A stretch of DNA of 64,000 bases from Aeromicrobium sp. (GCF_047607065.1 NZ_JASGDU010000054.1:135-64134), one strand, 5' to 3'; numbered from the stretch's first letter, positions 2,594-64,000 are shown. Notes: generated from the letters alone by a model not told the origin. Numbers and translations: made by a program.

Positions 2594-2649
2594 GCCGCGA
2601 GCATAGCCGCGCTCGGAGACCGCGATGGGATTTGACGGACCGGCGGGAT

Positions 2650-2745
2650 GCGAGGACCCCCCGCGTACCCGACAGAGCACACTGACCCTTGCTGCCTTCC
2701 GGCCCTGGGGGAGTTGGGTGAGATGTCGCCACGCGAGGGGCTGCG
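2650..2745 (-). ncRNA. ffs: signal recognition particle RNA (small bacterial 4.5S type); ends approximate
   Basis: The minus strand reads CCCCCAGGGCCGGAAGGCAGCAAGGGUCAG. This fits the conserved domain IV pattern CAGG-NCC-GGAA-GGN-AGCA (GGAA tetraloop at 2697-2700). A closing helix pairs CCCCUCGCG (2740-2732) with CGCGGGGGG (2665-2657), 9 bp including one G-U. Its position near dnaX and a tRNA-Ser fits the usual actinobacterial ffs neighbourhood. Confidence 0.7.
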
Positions 2746-14249: not shown

Positions 14250-14376
14250 CTTAGAACGCGCGCGGATAGGCGGAACCCGGTCCCTGAGGTGCGAGCTTGC
14301 GAGCCTCGAAGGGACCTCACCGCGACGGGCTTCGCCCTTCGAGGCTCCTCGTTCCTCGTCGCTCCTCAGGACCCGG
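14250..14376. repeat. palindromic repeat family, left TIR + inverted unit pair (cluster B)
   Basis: cttagaacgcgcgcggataggcggaac-ccggtccctgaggtgcgagcttgcgagcctcgaagggacc-spacer-cttcgcccttcgaggctcctcgttcctcgtcgctcctcaggacccgg. Confidence 0.85.
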
Positions 14377-14403
14377 CTCGGCCGCGGGCCTACCCCCGCG
14401 TTG

Positions 14404-15996
14404 TCAGAAGGTGCGGTGGCGGCGCAGGGCGGCGGGGCGGCCGTCGGGGTCGTGGAGGTAGCGGTACCACGGCGCCGCGAAGGCCTGACGGAACAGCGGC
14501 AGCGACGGCGCGGGCAGGCGGCGCAGCCGGCCGGCGGGCCGAGGCCCCTGCCGGCCGTCGCGGTGCCAGGCCTCCAGCCGCTCGGCCGCTCGCGCGAACT
14601 GGGCGAACATCGCGGCGGCCTCGACCGCCACCTCGCCCGGCTCGACATCCAGATGCTCCGCCGCCAGCGCCAGCCGCAACTCGCGCGCATAGGCGCTGTG
14701 ACCCTCGCCGGCCGGGTCGATCACCACGGCCGACAGCTCCGAGTCGTGGGTCCACGGCCGGCGGCAGAAATTGTCCGAGCCGATGGACGCCCACCAGTCG
14801 TCGAGCACGCACACCTTCGCGTGGACATAGACCGGTGTGCCCGCGTGATTCTCCAAGCCGTAGAAGGCCACCCGGTCCGGCGCCGCCGCGTACACCCGGC
14901 GCAGGGCGCGCAACCGACCGAGCACCTGCGGGTCGCGGGCGAACCAGCCGTCCTGGTCCGGGAATTGCGGCAGCACCCCGATCAGGTGCAGGCCCGGATG
15001 CGACTCCAGCGCGTCGACCAGGACCTCGCTCATCTGCCGGCCCCAGAGGAACTGGTCCTCCACGTAGATCAGCGACCGGGTCCGGCGCACCGCCTTGGCG
15101 TAGCCGCGCGCCACCGAGCGCTCCCCCTGCGGCGCGAAGTCGTACGCCCAGCCCAGGCCGAGCTTCGGGTAGGTGCGCAGCAGCTGCACCCGGTGGCCGG
15201 CGGGCCGCGGCGGCGGAGGGGGAGCCTGCGGCGGCAGCGGACGGCGTTCGCGGTGCAGCCCGCGCAGGGCGTCTCGCAGGCGGCGCAGCGGGTTGCGGGT
15301 CAGCGGCGTGGCGTCGTCCCACCGCTCGCGGAACACCGTCTCGACGTCGTGGACGACCGGCCCTTGCAAGGCGACCTGCACGTCGTGCCAGGGCGGTCGG
15401 TCGCCGTATTCGGACGCGAGGGCATCGGCCTGCGGATCGCCGAGGTGCCCGGCGTCGTCGCGCCGGCCGTGGCACAGGTCGATCCCGCCGACGAAGGCGA
15501 TGTCGCGGTCGGCGTCCCGGGCATGACGGATAACGACGAACTTCTGGTGATGTGCGCCGCCGGGCCGCACCCGCATGTCCAACTGCACGTCGGCGCCGCG
15601 ACGCTGGAGCAGGTCACCGAGCCGCCGGTGCTTCCCGGTCGCATAGCCCAAGGCGCCGCTGTGCGAGCGCCAGATGAGGGCGCGCATGTCGACACCGCGC
15701 TCCACCGCACGCCCGAACGTCTCGGCGACGCTGCTGCCCGGGTCGTCGGTCAGCCGCTGGTCGGGGTCGCCCTGCCAGTCGGTGAAGCAGATGAGGGCGC
15801 ACGGGCCGGTCGCCTCGATCCGGTCGTACAACTCGCGGAAGTAGGCGGCGCCGTGCAGGAGCGGCCGGGCCTCGTTGCCGTCGCGCCAGGCCCGGTCGAT
15901 CCCGTCGGGGCGGGTGTCGAGGCGCGTCGCGGGGTTGCCGCGCTCGGCGGCGGTGAGGAACCAGGCCGCCCGTTCGGTATGCCCGTCGATGCCCAT
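14404..15996 (-). CDS. phospholipase D superfamily protein with two HKD motifs
   Basis: HHQKFVVIRH...GGIDL and YVHAKVCVLDDWWASIGSDNF are the two HxK(x)4D(x)6G(S/G)xN motifs. No TM segments. Confidence 0.85.
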   Translation of the reverse strand: MGIDGHTERAAWFLTAAERGNPATRLDTRPDGIDRAWRDGNEARPLLHGAAYFRELYDRIEATGPCALICFTDWQGDPDQRLTDDPGSSVAETFGRAVERGVDMRALIWRSHSGALGYATGKHRRLGDLLQRRGADVQLDMRVRPGGAHHQKFVVIRHARDADRDIAFVGGIDLCHGRRDDAGHLGDPQADALASEYGDRPPWHDVQVALQGPVVHDVETVFRERWDDATPLTRNPLRRLRDALRGLHRERRPLPPQAPPPPPRPAGHRVQLLRTYPKLGLGWAYDFAPQGERSVARGYAKAVRRTRSLIYVEDQFLWGRQMSEVLVDALESHPGLHLIGVLPQFPDQDGWFARDPQVLGRLRALRRVYAAAPDRVAFYGLENHAGTPVYVHAKVCVLDDWWASIGSDNFCRRPWTHDSELSAVVIDPAGEGHSAYARELRLALAAEHLDVEPGEVAVEAAAMFAQFARAAERLEAWHRDGRQGPRPAGRLRRLPAPSLPLFRQAFAAPWYRYLHDPDGRPAALRRHRTF

Positions 15997-26316: not shown

Positions 26317-26380
26317 GGAGCGCGGGCTTGCGGCGCTACACTCGGGCCGTCAGACAGGGGAGCGCCGGGTCCACCGCAGA

Positions 26381-26459
26381 CGGACAGGGGCGCTGAGAGT
26401 GCGGGTGAAGCCGCAGACCCTCCGAACCTGCTCCGGTTAGTACCGGCGAAGGGAGTCCA
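26381..26459 (+). promoter_or_regulatory. TPP (THI-box) riboswitch
   Basis: ggacAGGGGCGCTGAGAGtgcgggtgaagccgcagACCCTccgAACCTGctCCGGttAGTACCGGCGaAGGGAgtcc matches the THI-box signature (CUGAGA, ACCC, AACCUG, CCGG..AUACCGGCG, AGGGA). The 3' strand of P1 (gtcc) and the AGGGAG Shine-Dalgarno end 2-6 nt before the ATG at 26461. Confidence 0.8.
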
Positions 26460-26460
26460 C

Positions 26461-27066
26461 ATGAGTTCTGCATCCCTGCGCGATCTCCTGCGCTACCGCA
26501 CCATCGACCTGGTGACCATCGCGACCCTAGGCGTCGCGTTCGGCGTCGTCTTCTGGGGGTGGGGCAAGCTGTACGCCCTGTTCGACATCGCCGCCAAGCT
26601 CGGCTTCCCGCCGGCGGCGGCTCTCATGGGCGGCGGTTGGCTGATCGCCGGCGTGGTCGGCGGACTTGTGGTTCGCAAGCCCGGTGCCGCGCTGGTGACC
26701 GAGCTGATCGCTGCCTGCGTCTCGGCGTTCATGCCGGGCAACGAGTGGGGCAGCTCGGTCCTGGTGTCCGGCTTGCTGGAGGGTCTCGGTGCCGAGCTGG
26801 TGCTGGCGGTCTTCGCCTACCGGCTGTTCGGGCCTGCCGTCGCTATGGCCGCCGGGGCGCTTGCGGGGGTCTTCGAGGCCGTTTACGAGTGGGGGTCCTG
26901 GTACGCGGACTGGGATTTCGACTACCGCCTGGCCCACCTCGTGCTGTTCGTCGTCTCCGGGGCGCTGATCGCCGGGGTCGGCGGCTGGTTGCTGGTGCGC
27001 GCGCTGGCCAGGGCGGGTGCGCTCGACGCCTTCCCGGCCGGGCGTGAGGCCGTCACCACCGTCTAG
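26461..27066 (+). CDS. ykoE: YkoE-family HMP/thiamine substrate-capture membrane component
   Basis: 201-aa protein with 5-6 TM segments, directly behind the TPP riboswitch and ahead of a duplicated ABC ATPase. This is the classical ykoEDC arrangement. Confidence 0.7.
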   Translation: MSSASLRDLLRYRTIDLVTIATLGVAFGVVFWGWGKLYALFDIAAKLGFPPAAALMGGGWLIAGVVGGLVVRKPGAALVTELIAACVSAFMPGNEWGSSVLVSGLLEGLGAELVLAVFAYRLFGPAVAMAAGALAGVFEAVYEWGSWYADWDFDYRLAHLVLFVVSGALIAGVGGWLLVRALARAGALDAFPAGREAVTTV

Positions 27067-29165: not shown

Positions 29166-29300
29166 CTTAGAACATGTGCGGATAGGCGCTGGCTGAGGTG
29201 CGAGCGAGGAACGAGCGAGCCTCGAAGCCTGCCACGGCTGGGTCATTTCGAGGCTCGCAAGCTCGCACCTCAATGACCGGCTCCGCCTATCTGCGGAATC
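29166..29300. repeat. palindromic repeat family, full-length composite with terminal inverted repeats (cluster E)
   Basis: Left end GCGGATAGGCG (29178-29188), right end CGCCTATCTGC (29284-29294), 1 mismatch. Inside: ctggctgaggtgcgagcgaggaacgagcgagcctcgaagcc, a spacer, then ggtcatttcgaggctcgcaagctcgcacctcaatgaccgg. Confidence 0.85.
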
Positions 29301-29325
29301 TCATAGTCACCGTGGAAGGAATCCC

Positions 29326-31032: not shown

Positions 31033-31202
31033 GCGGTCCCTGAGGTGCACCCTTCGAGGCCGCTCGTTCCTCGCGGTACCTCAGGACCCGCGCAAGCACA
31101 CTGGTCCCTGAGGTGCGAGCTTGCGAGCCTCTAAGGGACCTACCACGGCGGGCTTCGTGGCTGAAAGCTCGCACCTCAATGACCGGTTCCGCCTATCTGC
31201 GG
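31033..31202. repeat. palindromic repeat family, two unit pairs + right TIR (cluster F)
   Basis: gcggtccctgaggtgcacccttcgaggccgctcgttcctcgcggtacctcaggaccc; ctggtccctgaggtgcgagcttgcgagcctctaagggacc; ...aaagctcgcacctcaatgaccggttCCGCCTATCTGCGG. Confidence 0.85.
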
Positions 31203-31221
31203 AGACCTCTAGGGTGTCGGC

Positions 31222-33119: not shown

Positions 33120-33183
33120 GGCTGCTGCTGGCTGTACCGCCCACCCGGAGGGCGGGCGACCTCAGGGAAGTGCTGGTTGAGAC

Positions 33184-33395
33184 GTGCCGAAGATAGGTCC
33201 GCTGGCTGAGGTGCGCCCTTCGAGGCCGCTCGTTCCTCGCGGTACCTCAGGACCCGCGAGGAACGAGCGAGCCGGGTCCTGAGGTGCGAGGAGCGGTCCC
33301 TGAGGTGTGAGGCCGCTCGCGGCCGAGCCTCGAAGGGTGAAGCCTGCCGTAGGTGGATCATTTCGAGGCTCGCAAGCTCGCACCTCAGGGACCGG
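33184..33395. repeat. palindromic repeat family, array of about 3 full + 3 partial units (cluster G)
   Basis: Degenerate left end gtgccgaagataggtccgctggctgaggtgcg. Then cccttcgaggccgctcgttcctcgcggtacctcaggaccc; gggtcctgaggtgcgaggagc; ggtccctgaggtgtgaggccgctcgcggccgagcctcgaagggtg; ggatcatttcgaggctcgcaagctcgcacctcagggaccgg. Confidence 0.85.
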
Positions 33396-37782: not shown

Positions 37783-37816
37783 ATTGCCGTTCGGGGGAAC
37801 CGATGCTTCCTGACAC

Positions 37817-37846
37817 GGTTCCGCCAGCGGACCTATTGGCGGAACC
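37817..37846. repeat. solo palindrome built from repeat-family end sequences
   Basis: GGTTCCGCCA-gcggacctat-TGGCGGAACC. gccagcggacctat equals the reverse complement of 33192-33205, and ggcggaacc equals the left-end sequence at 14269-14277. Confidence 0.5.
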
Positions 37847-37873
37847 TCTTGCCCCCGATCAGTGGGACATGGC

Positions 37874-49904: not shown

Positions 49905-49910
49905 GCACCC

Positions 49911-50084
49911 GGTGCCTGAGCCTCGAAGGGACCCACCTCAGCCAGCGGACCTCCCCGCGCGCCAGGCCGGTCCCTGAGGTGCGACGAGGAACGAGGAGCC
50001 TCGAAGGGCGAAGCCTGCGGTGGTGGTCATTTCGAGGCTCGCAAGCTCGCACCTCAACGACCGGCTCCGCCTATCTGCGGAATC
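49911..50084. repeat. palindromic repeat family, several units + right TIR (cluster K)
   Basis: gagcctcgaagggacccacctcagccagcggacc; ccggtccctgaggtgcgacgaggaacgaggagcctcgaagggcg; ggtcatttcgaggctcgcaagctcgcacctcaacgaccggctCCGCCTATCTGCGGaatc. Confidence 0.85.
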
Positions 50085-50099
50085 GCCTACCCGCGAACC

Positions 50100-50561
50100 T
50101 TATGCGCCGAGTTGGCGCTTGACCTCGGCGGCGACGACCCCGCCGTCGGCGCGGCCCTTGACCTGGGGCTGCACGACGCCCATGACCCGTCCCATGGCTT
50201 TCATCCCCTCGCCCGCCGCGCCGATGTCCTGCACCGCCGCCGTCACGATCGCGGCGATCTCCTCGGCACTCAGCGCCTCCGGCAGGTAGCCGGCCAGGAT
50301 CGCGGCCTCGTCGCGCTCCTTCTGGGCCAGCTCGGGGCGGCCGCCGGCCTCGAATGCCTCGGCCGACTCGCGGCGCTTCTTGGCCTCCTTGGCGATGACG
50401 TCGAGGACTTCGTCATCGGACAGATCGCGCGCCTCGGTGCCGGCGACCTCGGCGTTGCTGATCGCCGTGAGCACCAGGCGGATCGTCGAGGCGGTCAGTG
50501 CCTCACGGGCCTTGAGAGCGGTGGTCAGGTCGGCGCGCAGACGGTCCTTGAGTTCAGCCAT
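50100..50561 (-). CDS. GatB/YqeY domain protein
   Basis: MAELKDRLRADLTTALKAREALTASTIRLVLTAISNAEV is a typical YqeY N-terminus. Track ORF 50100..51629 is over-extended; the ATG is at 50561. Confidence 0.85.
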   Translation of the reverse strand: MAELKDRLRADLTTALKAREALTASTIRLVLTAISNAEVAGTEARDLSDDEVLDVIAKEAKKRRESAEAFEAGGRPELAQKERDEAAILAGYLPEALSAEEIAAIVTAAVQDIGAAGEGMKAMGRVMGVVQPQVKGRADGGVVAAEVKRQLGA

Positions 50562-50624
50562 ACCCCCAGTCTGACCCATGACGCCAGGTGCCGGCCCCGA
50601 GGCGTCGTGTGCAACGCTGGGGTC

Positions 50625-51527
50625 GTGAGAGTGCGTCACGTCCTGGGAGGGGCTGCGGCAGCGAGTGCCGCAGCAGTTGCTTGGGGGGCCTTGATCGAGG
50701 TGCGGGCGTTTACGCTGCGCGAGTTCGCCGTGCCGGTGCTCGCTCCGGGGTCGCGGCCGGTGCGCATCTTGCACCTGTCCGACGCGCACATGCTGCCCTC
50801 GCAGGGCCGCAAGCAGGCGTGGCTGCGGGCGCTGGCCGACCTCGAACCCGATCTCGTCGTCAACACGGGCGACAACCTCTCGCACGTCGACGCGCTGCCG
50901 GCCGTGCTCGACGCCTACGGACCGCTGCTCGACGTGCCCGGTGTGTTCGTGTTCGGCTCGAACGACTACTTCTCCCCCCGGCCGAAGAACCCCGTGCGCT
51001 ACCTGCTGGGCGGCACCGGCGTCGCCTCCGGCGGGGCCTGGCAGCGGGTGCCCGACCTGCCGTTCGAGCAGATGCGCGAGGCGTTCACCGGGCGCGGCTG
51101 GGTGGACCTGACCAACCGCCACGACGCGCTCACCGTCGGCGGCCAGCGGCTCGCGTTCGTCGGGGTCGACGATCCGCACCTGGAGTACGACGTGCTCGAC
51201 GACGCCCCCGCCGATCCGGGGGCGGACCTGGCCATCGGCGTCGCGCACGCCCCCTACCTGCGGGTGCTCGACCGATGGAACACGCTCGGCTACCGGCTGA
51301 TCCTCGCCGGGCACACTCACGGTGGTCAGTTGTGCCTGCCGTACGTCGGCGCGCTGGCCACCAACTGCGATCTCGACACCGCCCGCGCGAAGGGGCTGCA
51401 CACCCACCGGGTGCCGGGACACGAGCCGTCCTGGATGCACGTCTCGGCGGGCCTCGGCACTTCCCCGTACGCGCCGATCCGCTTCGCCTGCCGACCCGAG
51501 GCGACACTGCTCACGCTGACTGGGTAG
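50625..51527 (+). CDS. metallophosphoesterase (Rv3683-like)
   Basis: ILHLSDAHM, NTGDN, GSNDY, GHTHGGQ. The start is approximate (in-frame GTG at 50625 or 50631). Confidence 0.8.
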   Translation: MRVRHVLGGAAAASAAAVAWGALIEVRAFTLREFAVPVLAPGSRPVRILHLSDAHMLPSQGRKQAWLRALADLEPDLVVNTGDNLSHVDALPAVLDAYGPLLDVPGVFVFGSNDYFSPRPKNPVRYLLGGTGVASGGAWQRVPDLPFEQMREAFTGRGWVDLTNRHDALTVGGQRLAFVGVDDPHLEYDVLDDAPADPGADLAIGVAHAPYLRVLDRWNTLGYRLILAGHTHGGQLCLPYVGALATNCDLDTARAKGLHTHRVPGHEPSWMHVSAGLGTSPYAPIRFACRPEATLLTLTG

Positions 51528-51560
51528 ACTCGCCCCGGTCGTTGACGCTGACGACTGCCA

Positions 51561-51634
51561 CGGGGTGTGGCGCAGCTTGGTAGCGCGCATCGTTCGGGAC
51601 GATGAGGCCGCAGGTTCAAATCCTGTCACCCCGA
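51561..51634 (+). tRNA. tRNA-Pro (anticodon CGG)
   Basis: Hand-folded. Acceptor CGGGGTG/CACCCCG plus A. D arm GCGC-AGCTTGGTA-GCGC. Anticodon arm CATCG-TTCGGGA-CGATG. T arm GCAGG-TTCAAAT-CCTGT. CCA is not encoded. Confidence 0.95.
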
Positions 51635-61695: not shown

Positions 61696-63456
61696 ATGAG
61701 CGAATCGCTGCCACCGCCTCCTGGCCCGTCCGGCATGCTGCCGCCACCGCCGGTCGACACCGCGCCCGCCGCAGGCGGCGCTGCGGCGGCCGGTGGAGGC
61801 GGGGGTGCAGCCCTGAAGATCGGTGCCGGGGTCGTCGGCCTGGCTCTCGTCGGCGGAGGGGCTTTCGGCGCGAAGGTCCTGTGGGACAACACCCTCGGCG
61901 GCGGCGGTCCGCAGCCGGCTGACGCGCTGCCCGCGAGCACCGTGGCCTACGCGCGGATCGACCTCGACCCCTCGGCCAGCCAGAAGGTTGCACTGCTGGA
62001 CCTCATCGACCGGGTGCCCGAGGTCAAGGAGGAGTTCGGTCTGGAAGACGTCGACTCCCAGGCCGACCTGCGTGAGGTCGCTTTCACCGACTGGTTCGAC
62101 ATCGAGGGTTCCTGCGACGTCGACTACGACGCCGACGTCAAGCCGTGGATCGGCGAGCGGGCCGGCATCGCGCTGATCGGCGACTTCGAGATCAGCGACG
62201 ACGAGCAGGACACCGCGCAGTCCGTCGCGGAGAACACCGCCCTGGTCATTCAGGTGACCGACGAGGACAAGGCGCGCGAAGGCATCACCAAGCTGGCGAC
62301 CGAGTGCGGGGTCATGGACGACCTCGCCGACGGTCTCGACCTCGACAACGAGGAGCCGGGCATTGTCTTCCGGGACGGCTTCGCCGTGGTCGCGGTGAGC
62401 CAGGAGGCCGCCGACGCCATCGACCAGGCCACGTCCGACAAGGGCACCCTGGCCAGCAACGACCGGTTCTCGGCCGACATGGACGCCCTCGGCGAGGACG
62501 GCATCTTCTCGGCCTGGTACGACGAGCGCACGCTCATGGGCAAGGTCGACGAAGCGCTCGACGAGTTCGGCGACGATGTGCCCGATGATGTCCACGACAT
62601 GGTTCAGGCCTACTCGAAGGTCGAGTCGGCGGCGTTCACCATCCGCGCGAGCGAGGAGTCGCTGGAGGCTGCGGGCGTAACGACGCTTGAGGACGGCTTC
62701 GAGACGCCCGATGCCGACAGCCTCGCGGGCCTGCCGGCCGACACCCTGGTCGGCGTGTCCATCGTGGGCGGCGGTCAGTGGATCGAGGAGGGCTGGGATT
62801 CCTTCGCGCCGATGGCCGAGCTGTACCTGCTGGACTCGTATGCCTGCCCGTACTACGACGACTACGAGTACGGTTACGACTACACCTGCGAACCGCCGTC
62901 GTTCGACGACATGGTCGACGACTTCGAGAGCGAGACCGGCCTGAAGGTGCCCGACGACCTGGCGACGCTGCTGGGCACGGAGTTCAACCTCTACGTCGGT
63001 TCCGAGGGCGTGGAGGACCTCAAGAACGCCGATGATGAGGCCGAGGCGCTGGAGACCCTCAACGCGGGAATCGAGATCACCTCCGACGGTGATGTGGCGG
63101 GTGTGTTGGAAGACCTCATGGACTTCGCCGGGGCCGACCTGGACATCACCGAGACTGACGGCGGTGCCATCATCGCCACGAACGACGATGCCGCCGAGAC
63201 GCTGGAGAGTGACGACGGCCTGGGTGAGTCCGAGACGTTCTCCTCGGTTATCAGCCAGCAGGACAACCCGATGGGCGGTGTCTACGTTGACATCGCGGGT
63301 GTGATCGACGCGCTCAAGTCCTTCGACGCCATTGACACCGGTGATGCCGACGACCTGGCATTCCTCAAGGCCTTCGGTCTGACGACGTGGCAGGAGAGCG
63401 ACAACGTCATCGGATTCAGTGCGAAACTGAGCTTCAACCCCGCCGACAGCGAGTAG
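61696..63456 (+). CDS. hypothetical membrane-anchored, highly acidic extracytoplasmic protein (DUF3352-like)
   Basis: Pro/Gly/Ala-rich N-terminus, one TM (IGAGVVGLALVGGGAF), then a 500-aa Asp/Glu-rich domain. The family assignment is from memory only. Confidence 0.5.
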   Translation: MSESLPPPPGPSGMLPPPPVDTAPAAGGAAAAGGGGGAALKIGAGVVGLALVGGGAFGAKVLWDNTLGGGGPQPADALPASTVAYARIDLDPSASQKVALLDLIDRVPEVKEEFGLEDVDSQADLREVAFTDWFDIEGSCDVDYDADVKPWIGERAGIALIGDFEISDDEQDTAQSVAENTALVIQVTDEDKAREGITKLATECGVMDDLADGLDLDNEEPGIVFRDGFAVVAVSQEAADAIDQATSDKGTLASNDRFSADMDALGEDGIFSAWYDERTLMGKVDEALDEFGDDVPDDVHDMVQAYSKVESAAFTIRASEESLEAAGVTTLEDGFETPDADSLAGLPADTLVGVSIVGGGQWIEEGWDSFAPMAELYLLDSYACPYYDDYEYGYDYTCEPPSFDDMVDDFESETGLKVPDDLATLLGTEFNLYVGSEGVEDLKNADDEAEALETLNAGIEITSDGDVAGVLEDLMDFAGADLDITETDGGAIIATNDDAAETLESDDGLGESETFSSVISQQDNPMGGVYVDIAGVIDALKSFDAIDTGDADDLAFLKAFGLTTWQESDNVIGFSAKLSFNPADSE

Positions 63457-63470
63457 GAGTAGGCCCACCC

Positions 63471-63566
63471 GGTCCCTGAGGTGCTGCGACGAAGGAGCAG
63501 CCTCGAAGGGACTTGCCACGGCAGGCTTCGAGGCTCGGCCGCAGGCGGCCTCACACCTCAGCCAGC
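63471..63566. repeat. palindromic repeat family, inverted unit pair (cluster N1)
   Basis: ggtccctgaggtgctgcgacgaaggagcagcctcgaagggac-ttgccacggcagg-cttcgaggctcggccgcaggcggcctcacacctcagccagc. Confidence 0.85.
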
Positions 63567-63588
63567 GGGCTTCGTAGGCCGAACGCGA

Positions 63589-63624
63589 CAGGGGCCGCCG
63601 GGAAGTATTTCCCGGCGGCCCCTG
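63589..63624. terminator. 16-bp perfect hairpin between two repeat elements
   Basis: CAGGGGCCGCCGGGAA (63589-63604), loop gtat, TTCCCGGCGGCCCCTG (63609-63624). No U tract on either strand. Confidence 0.55.
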
Positions 63625-63641
63625 CCGTTCGTCGCGGCCCT

Positions 63642-63777
63642 CAGAACGTGCGCGGATAGGCGGAATCCGGTCATCGAGGTGCGAGCTTGCGAGCCTCGAA
63701 ATGACCTACCACCGCAGGCTTCGAGGCTCCGGCCGCAAGCGGCCTACGCACCTCAGCCAGCGCCTATCCGCGCATCC
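63642..63777. repeat. palindromic repeat family, best-preserved full-length composite (cluster N2)
   Basis: Perfect 13-bp TIR: GCGCGGATAGGCG (63650-63662) and CGCCTATCCGCGC (63761-63773). It encloses ggtcatcgaggtgcgagcttgcgagcctcgaaatgacc, the spacer taccaccgcagg, then cttcgaggctccggccgcaagcggcctacgcacctcagccag. Confidence 0.9.
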
Positions 63778-63779
63778 AC

Positions 63780-64000
63780 TCAGGCGGTACGGCGGCGCCA
63801 GCGGCTCCACCAGCGCTGCTTGCGCTTCGGCTGCGGCGCGGCGGGCTGGGCCTGGGGTCCGGGGGCGGTGGGTGCCTCGCCGACGACGTAGCCGTCGATG
63901 ACCGGCTGCTCGACCGGCTCTTCCGGCACCAACTCGCCGACGATGGGTTCGACCGAGACGCTGCCGGACTCCTCGCTGGCTTCGGGCTTGACCGGCTCGC
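63780..64000 (-). CDS. C-terminal end of an unidentified protein (5' part beyond the right edge)
   Basis: Own minus-strand translation gives ...EPVKPEASEESGSVSVEPIVGELVPEEPVEQPVIDGYVVGEAPTAPGPQAQPAAPQPKRKQRWWSRWRRRTA, with the stop at 63780-63782. It is open to the window edge and has a low-complexity acidic/Pro region followed by a basic Trp/Arg tail. No family recognised. Confidence 0.4.
   Translation of the reverse strand, partial: EPVKPEASEESGSVSVEPIVGELVPEEPVEQPVIDGYVVGEAPTAPGPQAQPAAPQPKRKQRWWSRWRRRTA

What the first reader, a model, noticed from the sequence alone, without database searches (positions are those of the whole stretch)
63642..63777. Full-length composite element with a perfect 13-bp terminal inverted repeat, suggesting a MITE-like mobilised unit
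The best-preserved copy is about 136 bp. Its outer TIR is GCGCGGATAGGCG (63650-63662) and CGCCTATCCGCGC (63761-63773), a perfect match. Inside are a forward unit (63669-63706), a 12-nt spacer and an inverted unit.

29166-29300 has the same layout with ends GCGGATAGGCG and CGCCTATCTGC (1 mismatch). Other loci keep only one end. The left end is at 14260-14273 and, degenerate, at 33184-33205. The right end CCGCCTATCTGCGG is at 31189-31202 and 50067-50080.

The entity that spreads therefore looks like TIR + unit + spacer + inverted unit + TIR, with later truncation or nesting. That is more elaborate than classical single-hairpin REPs.
Basis: seen in the sequence. Interest (0 to 1): 0.6.

Follow-up and report, generated by a model that had tools for sequence, protein, structure and literature searches.

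The report
IS5-type hairpin MITE at stop codon
The 135-bp element is a real miniature, gene-less transposon whose ends resemble those of IS5-family insertion sequences in the same Aeromicrobium genome; it sits on a gene's stop codon, and it is a new family of a well-known kind of selfish DNA.

Summary
A perfect 14-bp inverted repeat (63649-63662 / 63761-63774) brackets two inverted hairpin units. The same cap-unit-spacer-unit-cap composite recurs at 20 or more loci of this 2.18-Mb Aeromicrobium MAG with unrelated flanks.

The true ends lie 5 nt further out, so the element is 63644-63778. It is flanked by a CTCA direct repeat. The right copy contains the stop codon of the convergent gene.

Seven of about 30 two-ended copies have perfect 3-4-bp target duplications. 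The neighbouring element (63457-63573) has GTAG/GTAG on the other gene's stop codon. Two congeners have 16- and 69-nt intergenic regions at this locus and no composite.

The end caps are graded variants of IS5-family terminal repeats:
- One resident IS is intact, 1.2 kb and multi-copy, with YTAR flanks.
- The other is a single 904-bp IS427-like copy that shares the outer 11 nt of the cap.

Neither IS, nor the caps, occurs in 30 relatives. No RAYT gene exists in the genus.

Caveats:
- Most copies have discordant flanks.
- Caps are interchangeable.
- The roughly 40-nt hairpin unit (about 400-1000 copies) is older, and most units lie outside capped composites.

Verdict: MITE reading supported; ordinary kind, undescribed family.

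The parts
63640..63643 (+). Left copy of the target-site duplication, CTCA. It could also be read as a 3-bp TCA, or as an apparent 5-bp CTCAG because the element starts with G.
   Evidence: Sequence. The same tetramer recurs at 63779-63782.
63644..63662 (+). Left terminal inverted repeat ('cap A'), GAACGTGCGCGGATAGGCG. The perfect core is 63649-63662.
   Evidence: 14/14 complementary. Alignments A2, A3 and A6. The outer GAACGTG equals the terminus of the resident IS427-like IS.
63663..63668 (+). Linker GAATCC between the cap and unit 1. The consensus across copies is GAACCC.
63669..63706 (+). Hairpin unit 1 (GGTCAT subtype): GGTCATCGAGGTGCGAGCTTGCGAGCCTCGAAATGACC.
   Evidence: Member of the GAGGTGCG..GAGCCTCGAA family.
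63707..63716 (+). Spacer TACCACCGCA between the two units, which face tail to tail.
63717..63758 (-). Hairpin unit 2 (GGCTGAGG subtype), inverted. Its loop holds the palindrome GGCCGCTTGCGGCC.
63761..63778 (-). Right terminal inverted repeat (cap A'), CGCCTATCCGCGCATCCA. The perfect core is 63761-63774.
63779..63782 (+). Right copy of the target-site duplication, CTCA. TCA at 63780-63782 is the TGA stop codon of the convergent minus-strand gene.
   Evidence: ORF 63780..63998 on the minus strand.
63457..63573 (.). Neighbouring element of the same family with short caps (GAGTAGGCCCACC... / ...GGGCTTC). It is flanked by GTAG at 63453-63456 and 63574-63577. The left GTAG contains the TAG stop of the plus-strand gene 61696-63456.
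   Evidence: Direct repeats D1, D4 and D5 show its homology to the composite.
63586..63627 (.). Hairpin lying between the two insertions (19-bp stem, 95% complementary). I read it as a native terminator-like hairpin, part of the presumed original 62-nt spacer 63578-63639; this is inferred.
   Evidence: I2.
29170..29302 (-). Second full composite, in opposite orientation. Caps are GAACATGTGCGGATAGGCG and CGCCTATCTGCGGAATCTC. Its flanks CTTA and ATAG are discordant.
14254..14403 (+). Composite with cap A on the left, a degenerate cap on the right (GGGCCTACCCCCGCGTTG) and different unit subtypes inside. TCA at 14404-14406 is the stop codon of the minus-strand ORF 14404-15996 (called PLD-like in an earlier first-reader note, e1-4186849).
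31190..31207 (-). Right cap CGCCTATCTGCGGAGACC closing a multi-unit array (31033-31207).
50068..50099 (-). Two tandem right caps (CGCCTATCTGCGGAATC followed by GCCTACCCGCGAACC). They abut TTA at 50100-50102, the stop codon of the minus-strand gene 50100-51629.
33179..33201 (+). Degenerate left cap GAGACGTGCCGAAGATAGGTCCG opening a multi-unit array.

Best explanation
The element at 63644-63778 is a non-autonomous DNA transposon (MITE).

Structure: two roughly 19-nt terminal inverted repeats ('caps') of IS5-family type enclose a tail-to-tail doublet of a roughly 40-nt hairpin unit. As a result the whole element can fold into one long hairpin.

Inferred mechanism:
- An IS5-family DDE transposase supplied in trans binds the caps and excises or copies the element.
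- It inserts the element at a short T/A-containing target (C-T-N-A), making a 3-4-bp staggered cut that is repaired into a duplication.
- In a 69% G+C genome such targets are largely stop codons.
- The duplication keeps the stop codon intact, so insertions there are tolerated. This would explain why the ends so often abut stop codons.

Candidate transposase sources:
- IS-B: an intact, multi-copy, 1,195-bp IS at C40:62444-63638.
- IS-A: a single 904-bp IS427-like copy at C46:62314-63217, whose reading frame looks disrupted.

The hairpin unit is an older repeat family that these capped elements carry and have helped to amplify in this lineage.

Shown: anatomy, copy family, boundaries, duplications in a subset of copies, absence from orthologous sites, and similarity of the caps to the IS ends.

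Inferred: which transposase acts, the cause of the stop-codon bias, and any terminator role of the hairpin.
For: Anatomy and fold:
- The 14/14 inverted repeat is confirmed.
- The whole element folds as one hairpin: DNA -42 kcal/mol, z -5.6; RNA -73.6 kcal/mol, z -5.7.

The composite is copied as a whole:
- Ten trimmed copies share the same caps, the same two unit subtypes and the same spacer at 82% mean column identity.
- Their flanks are unrelated.
- The junction 24-mer occurs 31 times here and 0 times in 30 relatives.

Perfect duplications abutting the caps:
- CTCA at this copy and GTAG at the neighbouring element.
- CGTA, CTAG, CTGA and CTGA.
- TTTG.
- One-mismatch pairs: CTAG/CTAT and CTAA/CTCA.

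Orthologous sites:
- G007 has a 69-nt spacer with one degenerate unit and no cap.
- G017 has a 16-nt spacer.

IS-B:
- An IS5-family transposase (NF033581, 303 bits), with an open 341-aa ORF; the NCBIfam profile matched nearly end to end (1-283 of 285) on the 353-aa open frame.
- Terminal repeats GGAATCGCTGATCT / GGAAGTGCTGATCT.
- Five near-identical ends, each preceded by YTAR.
- Its relatives in other actinobacteria carry TTAG (three copies) and CTAG duplications.

Caps as variants of the IS ends:
- Cap B (GGGAAGTGCTGATTTATTCG) and cap-A variants (GGATCCGCTGAT|AGGCGG) form a graded series with these repeats.
- The motif occurs 41 times here against a control of 0, and at background level in relatives.

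IS-A:
- Perfect 17-nt terminal repeat CTGAGAACGTGTTGGGG.
- Its first 11 nt equal the outer end of canonical cap A.
- TNAGAACRYG occurs 41 times against a control of 3, and about 26 of these are caps.
- It is single-copy and absent from relatives.

Stop codons at ends: 63454-56, 63780-82, 14404-06 and 50100-02.

Literature:
- IS5 duplicates YTAR (PMC5009759).
- ISLxx6, an actinobacterial IS5-family element of the IS427 group, recognises 3 nt as its insertion site, a feature the paper associates with the IS1031 group (PMC2516522).
Against: - About 13 of 20 two-ended A-A' copies have discordant flanks. The central base matches in 7 of 18, where chance would give about 5.
- Inward-reading TGA (12) far outnumbers TCA (2) at cap-A ends. 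A simple duplication model does not predict this.
- Observed duplications (CTCA, CTGA, CGTA, GTAG, TTTG) mostly do not fit IS-B's YTAR preference.
- No IS is bounded by the exact cap-A sequence.
- IS-A's flanks (TGA / TCA) are not a direct repeat, and its reading frame carries two TAG codons and a frame change.
- Caps are more variable than the interior and are combinatorial: A-A', A-B' and B-B' all occur.
- Only about a third of the outer sides of type-I units carry a recognisable cap.
- In G007 the units occur as head-to-head doublets without any cap.
- No within-population filled/empty polymorphism could be tested.
Confidence: 0.72

Rival explanations
1. Modular origin. The hairpin doublet is an independent REP-like replicator moved by some unknown mechanism. 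The IS5-type caps are a separate small MITE or IS remnant. The composite arises repeatedly by nesting or recombination and is not itself the unit that transposes.
For: - About 400 strict and about 1,000 relaxed units exist, against only tens of caps.
- Units without caps exist in G007 and in a distant MAG.
- Caps are interchangeable and more variable than the interior.
- Most flanks are discordant.
- A solo cap without units lies at 37812-37856.
Against: - Ten or more loci share the identical combination of caps, two particular unit subtypes and spacer. That combination is unlikely to be assembled independently each time.
- Where duplications exist, they abut the caps and not the units.
- The junction 24-mer is specific to the one genome that also holds the ISs.
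Confidence: 0.15
2. REP/REPIN-type element mobilised by a REP-associated tyrosine transposase (RAYT) through single-stranded hairpin intermediates.
For: Short palindromic units occur in hundreds of extragenic copies, as inverted doublets that fold into a long hairpin, with stems that co-vary between subtypes.
Against: - No Y1_Tnp (PF01797) match in this genome (96% complete) or in 20 congeners, while the controls were detected.
- No conserved GTAG or CGTC tag at the foot of the unit.
- Target duplications exist, and RAYT/IS200-type transposition does not make them.
Confidence: 0.04
3. Non-mobile structural motif: a conserved bidirectional terminator or mRNA-stabilising hairpin kept at 3' ends by selection.
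For: The elements lie between convergent genes right after stop codons, and the predicted fold is strong.
Against: - The family is lineage-specific: 398 strict units here, against 32, 2, 1 and 0 in relatives.
- It is absent from the orthologous spacers.
- Flanking duplications are present.
- A separate terminator-like hairpin already sits in the same spacer (I2).
Confidence: 0.02

Closest known systems
MITEs derived from IS5-family insertion sequences (parents of the E. coli IS5 type with YTAR targets, and of the IS427/IS1031 type with 3-bp targets)
   Same: - Small and non-coding.
- Terminal repeats resemble those of a resident IS5-family IS.
- 3-4-bp duplications of a T/A-containing target.
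- Many dispersed copies and a long-hairpin fold.
   Different: - Caps exist in several interchangeable variants related to two different resident ISs.
- The interior is a doublet of a separately abundant hairpin unit.
- Observed targets are mostly C-T-N-A rather than YTAR.
- Most copies lack matching duplications.
REPINs / REP sequences with RAYT transposases (Pseudomonas, E. coli; PMC3116915, PMC3733652)
   Same: - Units of about 40 nt, palindromic, extragenic and in hundreds of copies.
- Inverted doublets that fold into one hairpin.
- Clustering into arrays.
   Different: - No RAYT in the genome or the genus.
- No GTAG or CGTC tag.
- Flanking duplications and IS5-like terminal repeats are present.
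BIMEs of E. coli (mosaic arrays of REPs and accessory motifs; recalled from general knowledge, not tested here)
   Same: Mosaic, combinatorial arrangement of hairpin units in alternating orientation with accessory flanking and linker motifs, located at the 3' ends of genes.
   Different: - Unrelated sequences.
- The accessory end motifs here are transposon terminal repeats with duplications, not host-factor binding motifs as far as is known.
Correia (NEMIS) elements of Neisseria (recalled from general knowledge; listed among MITEs in PMC3733652)
   Same: A MITE of about 100-150 bp with terminal repeats, abundant next to genes, co-transcribed and folding into a hairpin.
   Different: - Different transposase lineage and target (recalled as TA).
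- No internal REP-like doublet.
- No stop-codon overlap reported, to my knowledge.

Membership tests
Bacterial MITE | Small (about 70-300 bp), with no coding capacity | tested here: met
   The element is 135 bp (63644-63778). Only chance ORFs typical of high-GC DNA overlap it.
Bacterial MITE | Terminal inverted repeats of about 15-30 bp | tested here: met
   A 14/14 perfect core lies within roughly 19-nt caps.
Bacterial MITE | Target-site duplication flanking the element | tested here: met
   This copy has CTCA/CTCA. Six further perfect cases were found (GTAG, CGTA, CTAG, CTGA twice, TTTG). Caveat: the majority of two-ended copies are discordant.
Bacterial MITE | Multiple dispersed copies with unrelated flanks and consistent ends | tested here: met
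   Alignments A1-A3. There are 31 cap-unit junctions genome-wide.
Bacterial MITE | Terminal repeats related to those of an autonomous IS | tested here: met
   The caps form a graded series with the IS-B repeats. The outer 11 nt are identical to the IS-A repeat. No IS carries the exact cap-A sequence.
Bacterial MITE | Filled and empty sites | tested here: met
   This holds between species only. The orthologous spacer is 69 nt in G007 and 16 nt in G017, against 323 nt here.
Bacterial MITE | Mobilised in trans by the cognate transposase | not testable with these tools
   This needs a transposition or binding assay.
REP / REPIN-RAYT system | Short imperfect palindromes, hundreds of extragenic copies, inverted doublets | tested here: met
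REP / REPIN-RAYT system | Conserved GTAG (or CGTC) tag at one foot of the hairpin (PMC3733652) | tested here: not met
   Unit feet read GGTCCCT, GGTCATT, CTGGCT and similar. No conserved tag is present.
REP / REPIN-RAYT system | A RAYT (Y1 transposase) gene in the genome, flanked by REPs | tested here: not met
   PF01797 is absent from G000 and from 20 congeners, while the positive controls were detected.
REP / REPIN-RAYT system | No target-site duplication | tested here: not met
   Duplications are present at several copies.
IS5-family insertion sequence (autonomous) | Encodes a DDE transposase between the terminal repeats | tested here: not met
   The element has no transposase. The resident IS5-family ISs lie elsewhere, at C40:62444-63638 and C46:62314-63217.

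The most novel reading that the evidence does not exclude
The roughly 40-nt hairpin unit could be a free-standing REP-like replicator that has no RAYT, predates the caps, and spreads by hitch-hiking between IS5-type ends.

Observations this reading rests on:
- The unit is present without caps in a congener (G007) and in a distant actinomycete MAG.
- It has burst to about 400-1000 copies, roughly 2% of the genome.
- This genome is about 1 Mb smaller than its congeners.
- Insertions sit on stop codons.
- Many copies have mismatched flanks.

Together these would mean that the elements rewired 3' ends. They would also mean that recombination between copies contributed to the genome reduction.
Probability: 0.18. 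Interest if true: 0.6.

Novelty: new member of a known kind. Interest (0 to 1): 0.35.

Why it matters
- It gives a concrete, testable example of how a high-GC actinobacterial genome can be filled with hairpin repeats without a RAYT. IS5-type ends flank a REP-like doublet, and insertion on stop codons regenerates the stop.
- It explains why this MAG breaks into 63 contigs. A multi-copy IS and the composite itself lie at contig ends.
- It cautions annotators that many short 'terminator-like' hairpins next to stop codons in this lineage are transposon copies.
- The mismatch between the target preferences of the MITEs and of their most likely parent IS is a small open question about target choice in IS5-family transposases.

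Tried and rejected
Tools that failed:
- The Python box was lost. The genome-wide census after that point used pattern searches and manual tabulation of about 30 two-ended copies, so the counts are samples and not exhaustive.

Scans that found nothing:
- Genome contigs and metagenome contigs with the flanking DUF3352 protein.
- An exact-pattern scan of metagenome contigs with the cap-unit junction.

Other negative or uninformative results:
- Rfam gave no match on the element.
- A MAFFT alignment of the joined flanks against the G017 and G007 spacers was uninformative. The comparison was therefore made by reading.

Hypotheses rejected:
- RAYT involvement.
- The rve-type IS on C5 as parent. Its 47-nt terminal repeats are unrelated, and GATAGGCG is not enriched there.
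- A strict 5-bp or TNA duplication as a general rule. The central base matches in only 7 of 18 copies, and the inward TGA/TCA counts are asymmetric.
- My initial reading that the 'TIR' was merely a BIME-like accessory motif, once the IS ends were seen.

Claim withdrawn: G017 has the same CTCAGGC at its stop codon, but the C-terminal tails are too diverged to call that homology.

Full report
**Observation.**

The stretch 63642-63777 contains a perfect 14-nt inverted repeat, 63649-63662 TGCGCGGATAGGCG and 63761-63774 CGCCTATCCGCGCA. Between the arms lie:
- a 38-nt hairpin unit (63669-63706)
- a 10-nt spacer
- a second unit of a different subtype in inverted orientation (63717-63758)

The copy at 29166-29300 has the same parts in the opposite orientation.

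The motif is not a chance feature:
- GCGGATAGGCG with up to one mismatch occurs 10 times in the window, against 3.0 +/- 1.5 in shuffles.
- The 24-mer that joins the repeat to unit 1 occurs 31 times in the genome, 0 times in the reversed control and 0 times in 30 related genomes.

**Host and setting.**

The window is contig C54 of a MAG of 2.18 Mb, 63 contigs, 69% G+C and 96% completeness. A conserved FadB protein places it in Aeromicrobium (Nocardioidaceae), with the best relatives at 78% identity. Congeners have 1.8-3.9 Mb (3.0-3.9 Mb for the assemblies that are 94% or more complete).

The element lies in a 323-nt spacer between two convergent genes. One is a DUF3352 protein ending at 63456. 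The other is a minus-strand gene whose stop codon is TCA at 63780-63782.

**The composite is a copied entity with defined ends.**

BLAST made before the Python box failed found about 270 partial matches and about 10 near-full matches to the element. Twelve near-full copies aligned with their flanks share the order cap, linker, GGTCAT-type unit, spacer CACCACCGC, GGCTGAGG-type unit, cap. Their flanks are unrelated. Ten trimmed copies have 82% mean column identity, and the interior looks nearly identical between copies.

Similarity continues 5 nt outside the 14-nt repeat, with consensus G-ARNN-TGCGCGGATAGGCG, and then stops. The whole element folds into one long hairpin:
- DNA: -42 kcal/mol, z = -5.6
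- RNA: -73.6 kcal/mol, z = -5.7

**Target-site duplications.**

With the corrected ends (63644-63778), this copy is flanked by CTCA at 63640-63643 and 63779-63782. The right copy contains the stop codon of the convergent gene.

The other repeat in the same spacer (63457-63573) has shortened caps and is flanked by GTAG at 63453-63456 and 63574-63577. The left GTAG contains the TAG stop of the upstream gene.

If both elements and one copy of each repeat are removed, a 62-nt spacer with a 19-bp-stem terminator-like hairpin (63586-63627) is left between the two stop codons.

Among about 30 two-ended copies read by eye:
- Further perfect repeats abut the caps: CGTA, CTAG, CTGA and CTGA and TTTG.
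- One-mismatch pairs include CTAG/CTAT and CTAA/CTCA.

The length is 3-4 bp. Apparent 5-nt repeats arise because the caps begin with G and end with C.

The rule is far from universal:
- About 13 of 20 A-A' copies are discordant.
- Inward-reading TGA (12) greatly outnumbers TCA (2) at cap-A ends.

I therefore regard duplications as shown for a subset of copies, not for the family as a whole. Age, selection on stop codons or recombination between copies could explain the rest. This is inference.

**Orthologous sites.**

- In the nearest congener (G007; flanking protein 61% identical) the same two genes converge on a 69-nt spacer. It holds one degenerate unit and no cap.
- In G017 the two stop codons are 16 nt apart.
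- In G010 and G011 synteny is lost.

These are filled and empty states between species, not within a population.

**Which transposase?**

No RAYT-type Y1 transposase exists in this genome or in 20 congeners. A DDE_Tnp_1 search found two IS5-family elements.

IS-B (C40:62444-63638, 1,195 bp):
- It encodes an open 341-aa ORF; on the 353-aa open frame the NF033581 profile matched nearly end to end, with DUF772 and DDE_Tnp_1 domains.
- Its terminal repeats are GGAATCGCTGATCT and GGAAGTGCTGATCT.
- Five near-identical copies of one end lie at contig ends. Each is preceded by TTAG, TTAA, CTAA or CTAG. This is the YTAR target known for IS5 (PMC5009759).
- Its transposase is 80-90% identical to the 120 best-listed actinobacterial proteins, out of at least 8,000 with E <= 1e-30.
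- Three copies of a relative in one genome each show TTAG duplications, and another relative shows CTAG.

IS-A (C46:62314-63217, 904 bp):
- It is of the NF033580 type, with DUF4096 and DDE_Tnp_1 domains.
- It has a perfect 17-nt terminal repeat, CTGAGAACGTGTTGGGG.
- It is single-copy and absent from 30 relatives.
- Its reading frame carries two TAG codons and a frame change. The related actinobacterial IS1237 has similar features in all its copies (PMC2516522), so this is not proof that the element is dead.
- A Rhodococcus plasmid relative shows a 3-bp TCA duplication.

**Caps are IS5-type terminal repeats.**

- A second cap type, B (TNA|GGGAAGTGCTGATTTATTCGGGTTG...), precedes about 17% of type-I units. 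It matches the IS-B left repeat at 17 of 21 positions.
- A third cap (GGATCCGCTGATTTATAGG...) matches the IS-B right repeat.
- Intermediates exist. The shared motif occurs 41 times here against a control of 0, and at background level in relatives.
- Cap-A variants such as GGATCCGCTGAT|AGGCGG carry the same 12-nt core. The canonical cap of this copy keeps TGCGCGGAT, compared with TGCGCTGAT in an IS-B relative.
- The outer 11 nt of canonical cap A (CTNAGAACGTG) equal the IS-A terminus. TNAGAACRYG occurs 41 times against a control of 3, and about 26 of these are caps.
- Elements occur as A-A', A-B' and B-B'.
- The rve-type IS on C5 has unrelated ends.

**The hairpin units.**

- The core GAGGTGCG-N-GAGCCTCGAA occurs 398 times under a strict pattern and about 1,083 times under a relaxed one.
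- The outer stems co-vary between subtypes: GGTCCCT/AGGGACC, GGTCATT/AATGACC, CTCATT/AATGAG and others.
- G007 has 32 strict copies. Two other congeners have 2 and 1. The remaining relatives have none.
- In G007 the units form head-to-head doublets without caps, again between stop codons.
- One unit lies downstream of fadB in a distant actinomycete MAG.

The unit is therefore older than the caps, and most units lie outside capped composites. How uncapped units spread is unexplained.

**Interpretation.**

The best-supported reading is an IS5-type hairpin MITE mobilised in trans (confidence 0.72).
- IS-B is the more plausible source, being intact, multi-copy and a match to the cap core.
- IS-A matches the very terminus of the cap and the C-T-N-A style of target.
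- I cannot decide between them.

The main rival is that the doublet and the caps are independent modules joined repeatedly (0.15). RAYT-driven REPINs (0.04) and a purely structural motif (0.02) are contradicted by tested features.

The stop-codon association has two parts:
- Observed: in four cases in the window, an element end or its flanking repeat coincides with or directly abuts a flanking gene's stop codon.
- Inferred: it follows from an A/T-containing target in a 69% G+C genome, together with a duplication that regenerates the stop.

**Comparison and novelty.**

The element meets the defining features of bacterial MITEs that could be tested. It fails three defining features of REP/RAYT systems. 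MITEs with IS5-type ends and hairpin interiors are a known kind, and other agents in this scan have described similar ones in other phyla, one also landing on stop codons (unchecked notes). This family, in Aeromicrobium, with interchangeable caps around a REP-like doublet, appears undescribed. Literature searches found nothing on it. I rate it a new member of a known kind, with modest interest.

**Limits.**

- Counts after one search come from pattern searches capped at 100 listed rows, and from manual reading.
- The duplication statistics are from about 30 copies chosen because both ends were recognisable.
- No read-level or strain-level polymorphism data could be obtained.

Noticed in passing
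Outside the window: G000 C40:62444-63638, with further ends at C11:1-131, C21:1-128, C12:38756-38883, C42:22839-22926, C4:75-97, C28:3362-3384 and C11:21912-21934: An intact, multi-copy 1.2-kb IS5-family insertion sequence lies at many contig ends, with YTAR flanks. It probably causes much of the fragmentation of this assembly.
   Followed up: yes
Outside the window: G000 C46:62314-63217 (L132:1080-1983): A single 904-bp IS427-like IS5-family element with a perfect 17-nt terminal repeat. Its reading frame has two TAG codons in place of Tyr and a frame change. Next to it (C46:63296-63318) is a fragment resembling the left end of the other IS.
   Followed up: partly
window 37812-37856: A palindrome, GGTTCCGCCAGCGGACCTATTGGCGGAACC. 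It reads as a solo cap-A-like module (CCGCCAATAGGTCCGCTGGC on the minus strand) with no hairpin unit attached. It may be a remnant of an element.
   Followed up: partly
window 49905-49960: An internally deleted element. A left cap-like GTAGGCA, a unit lacking its loop (GGTGCCTGAGCCTCGAAGGGACC), half of a second unit and a degenerate right cap are packed into about 55 nt.
   Followed up: no
L053:3270-3315 (MAG 'Actinomycetes bacterium nzgw105', downstream of its fadB): One hairpin unit of the same family, CCCCTTGAGGTGCGAGTGAGGAACGAACGAGCCTCGAAAGGGG, in a genome whose FadB is only 68% identical. The unit family is therefore patchily distributed beyond this species.
   Followed up: partly
G007 loci L147-L150: In the nearest congener the units occur as head-to-head doublets without IS5-like caps, between stop codons of convergent genes. 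This is the opposite internal orientation to the capped composites here.
   Followed up: partly
Whole genome G000: The genome is 2.18 Mb at 96% completeness, against 3.0-3.9 Mb for the more complete congener assemblies, yet it carries roughly 400-1000 hairpin units. Whether recombination between repeats contributed to the size difference was not tested.
   Followed up: no
window 63717-63758 and other GGCTGAGG-type units: The loop of this unit subtype reads GTAGGCCGCTTGCGGCC. That is a GTAG tetranucleotide followed by a GC-rich palindrome, the signature of classical REPs, nested inside the larger hairpin. It could be coincidence.
   Followed up: no
L131:1349-1385 (sub-terminal region of the multi-copy IS): Just inside the IS terminal repeat lies GGTGGGTGAGCGAGCCTGGGGAGGGGCGTAGGGACC. 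It loosely resembles a hairpin unit with its loop deleted. This could hint that the units derive from sub-terminal IS sequence.
   Followed up: no
window 2649-2745, 2807-2891, 26346-26471, 51561-51634: Rfam matches: SRP RNA, two tRNAs and a TPP riboswitch. These are ordinary features unrelated to the finding.
   Followed up: no
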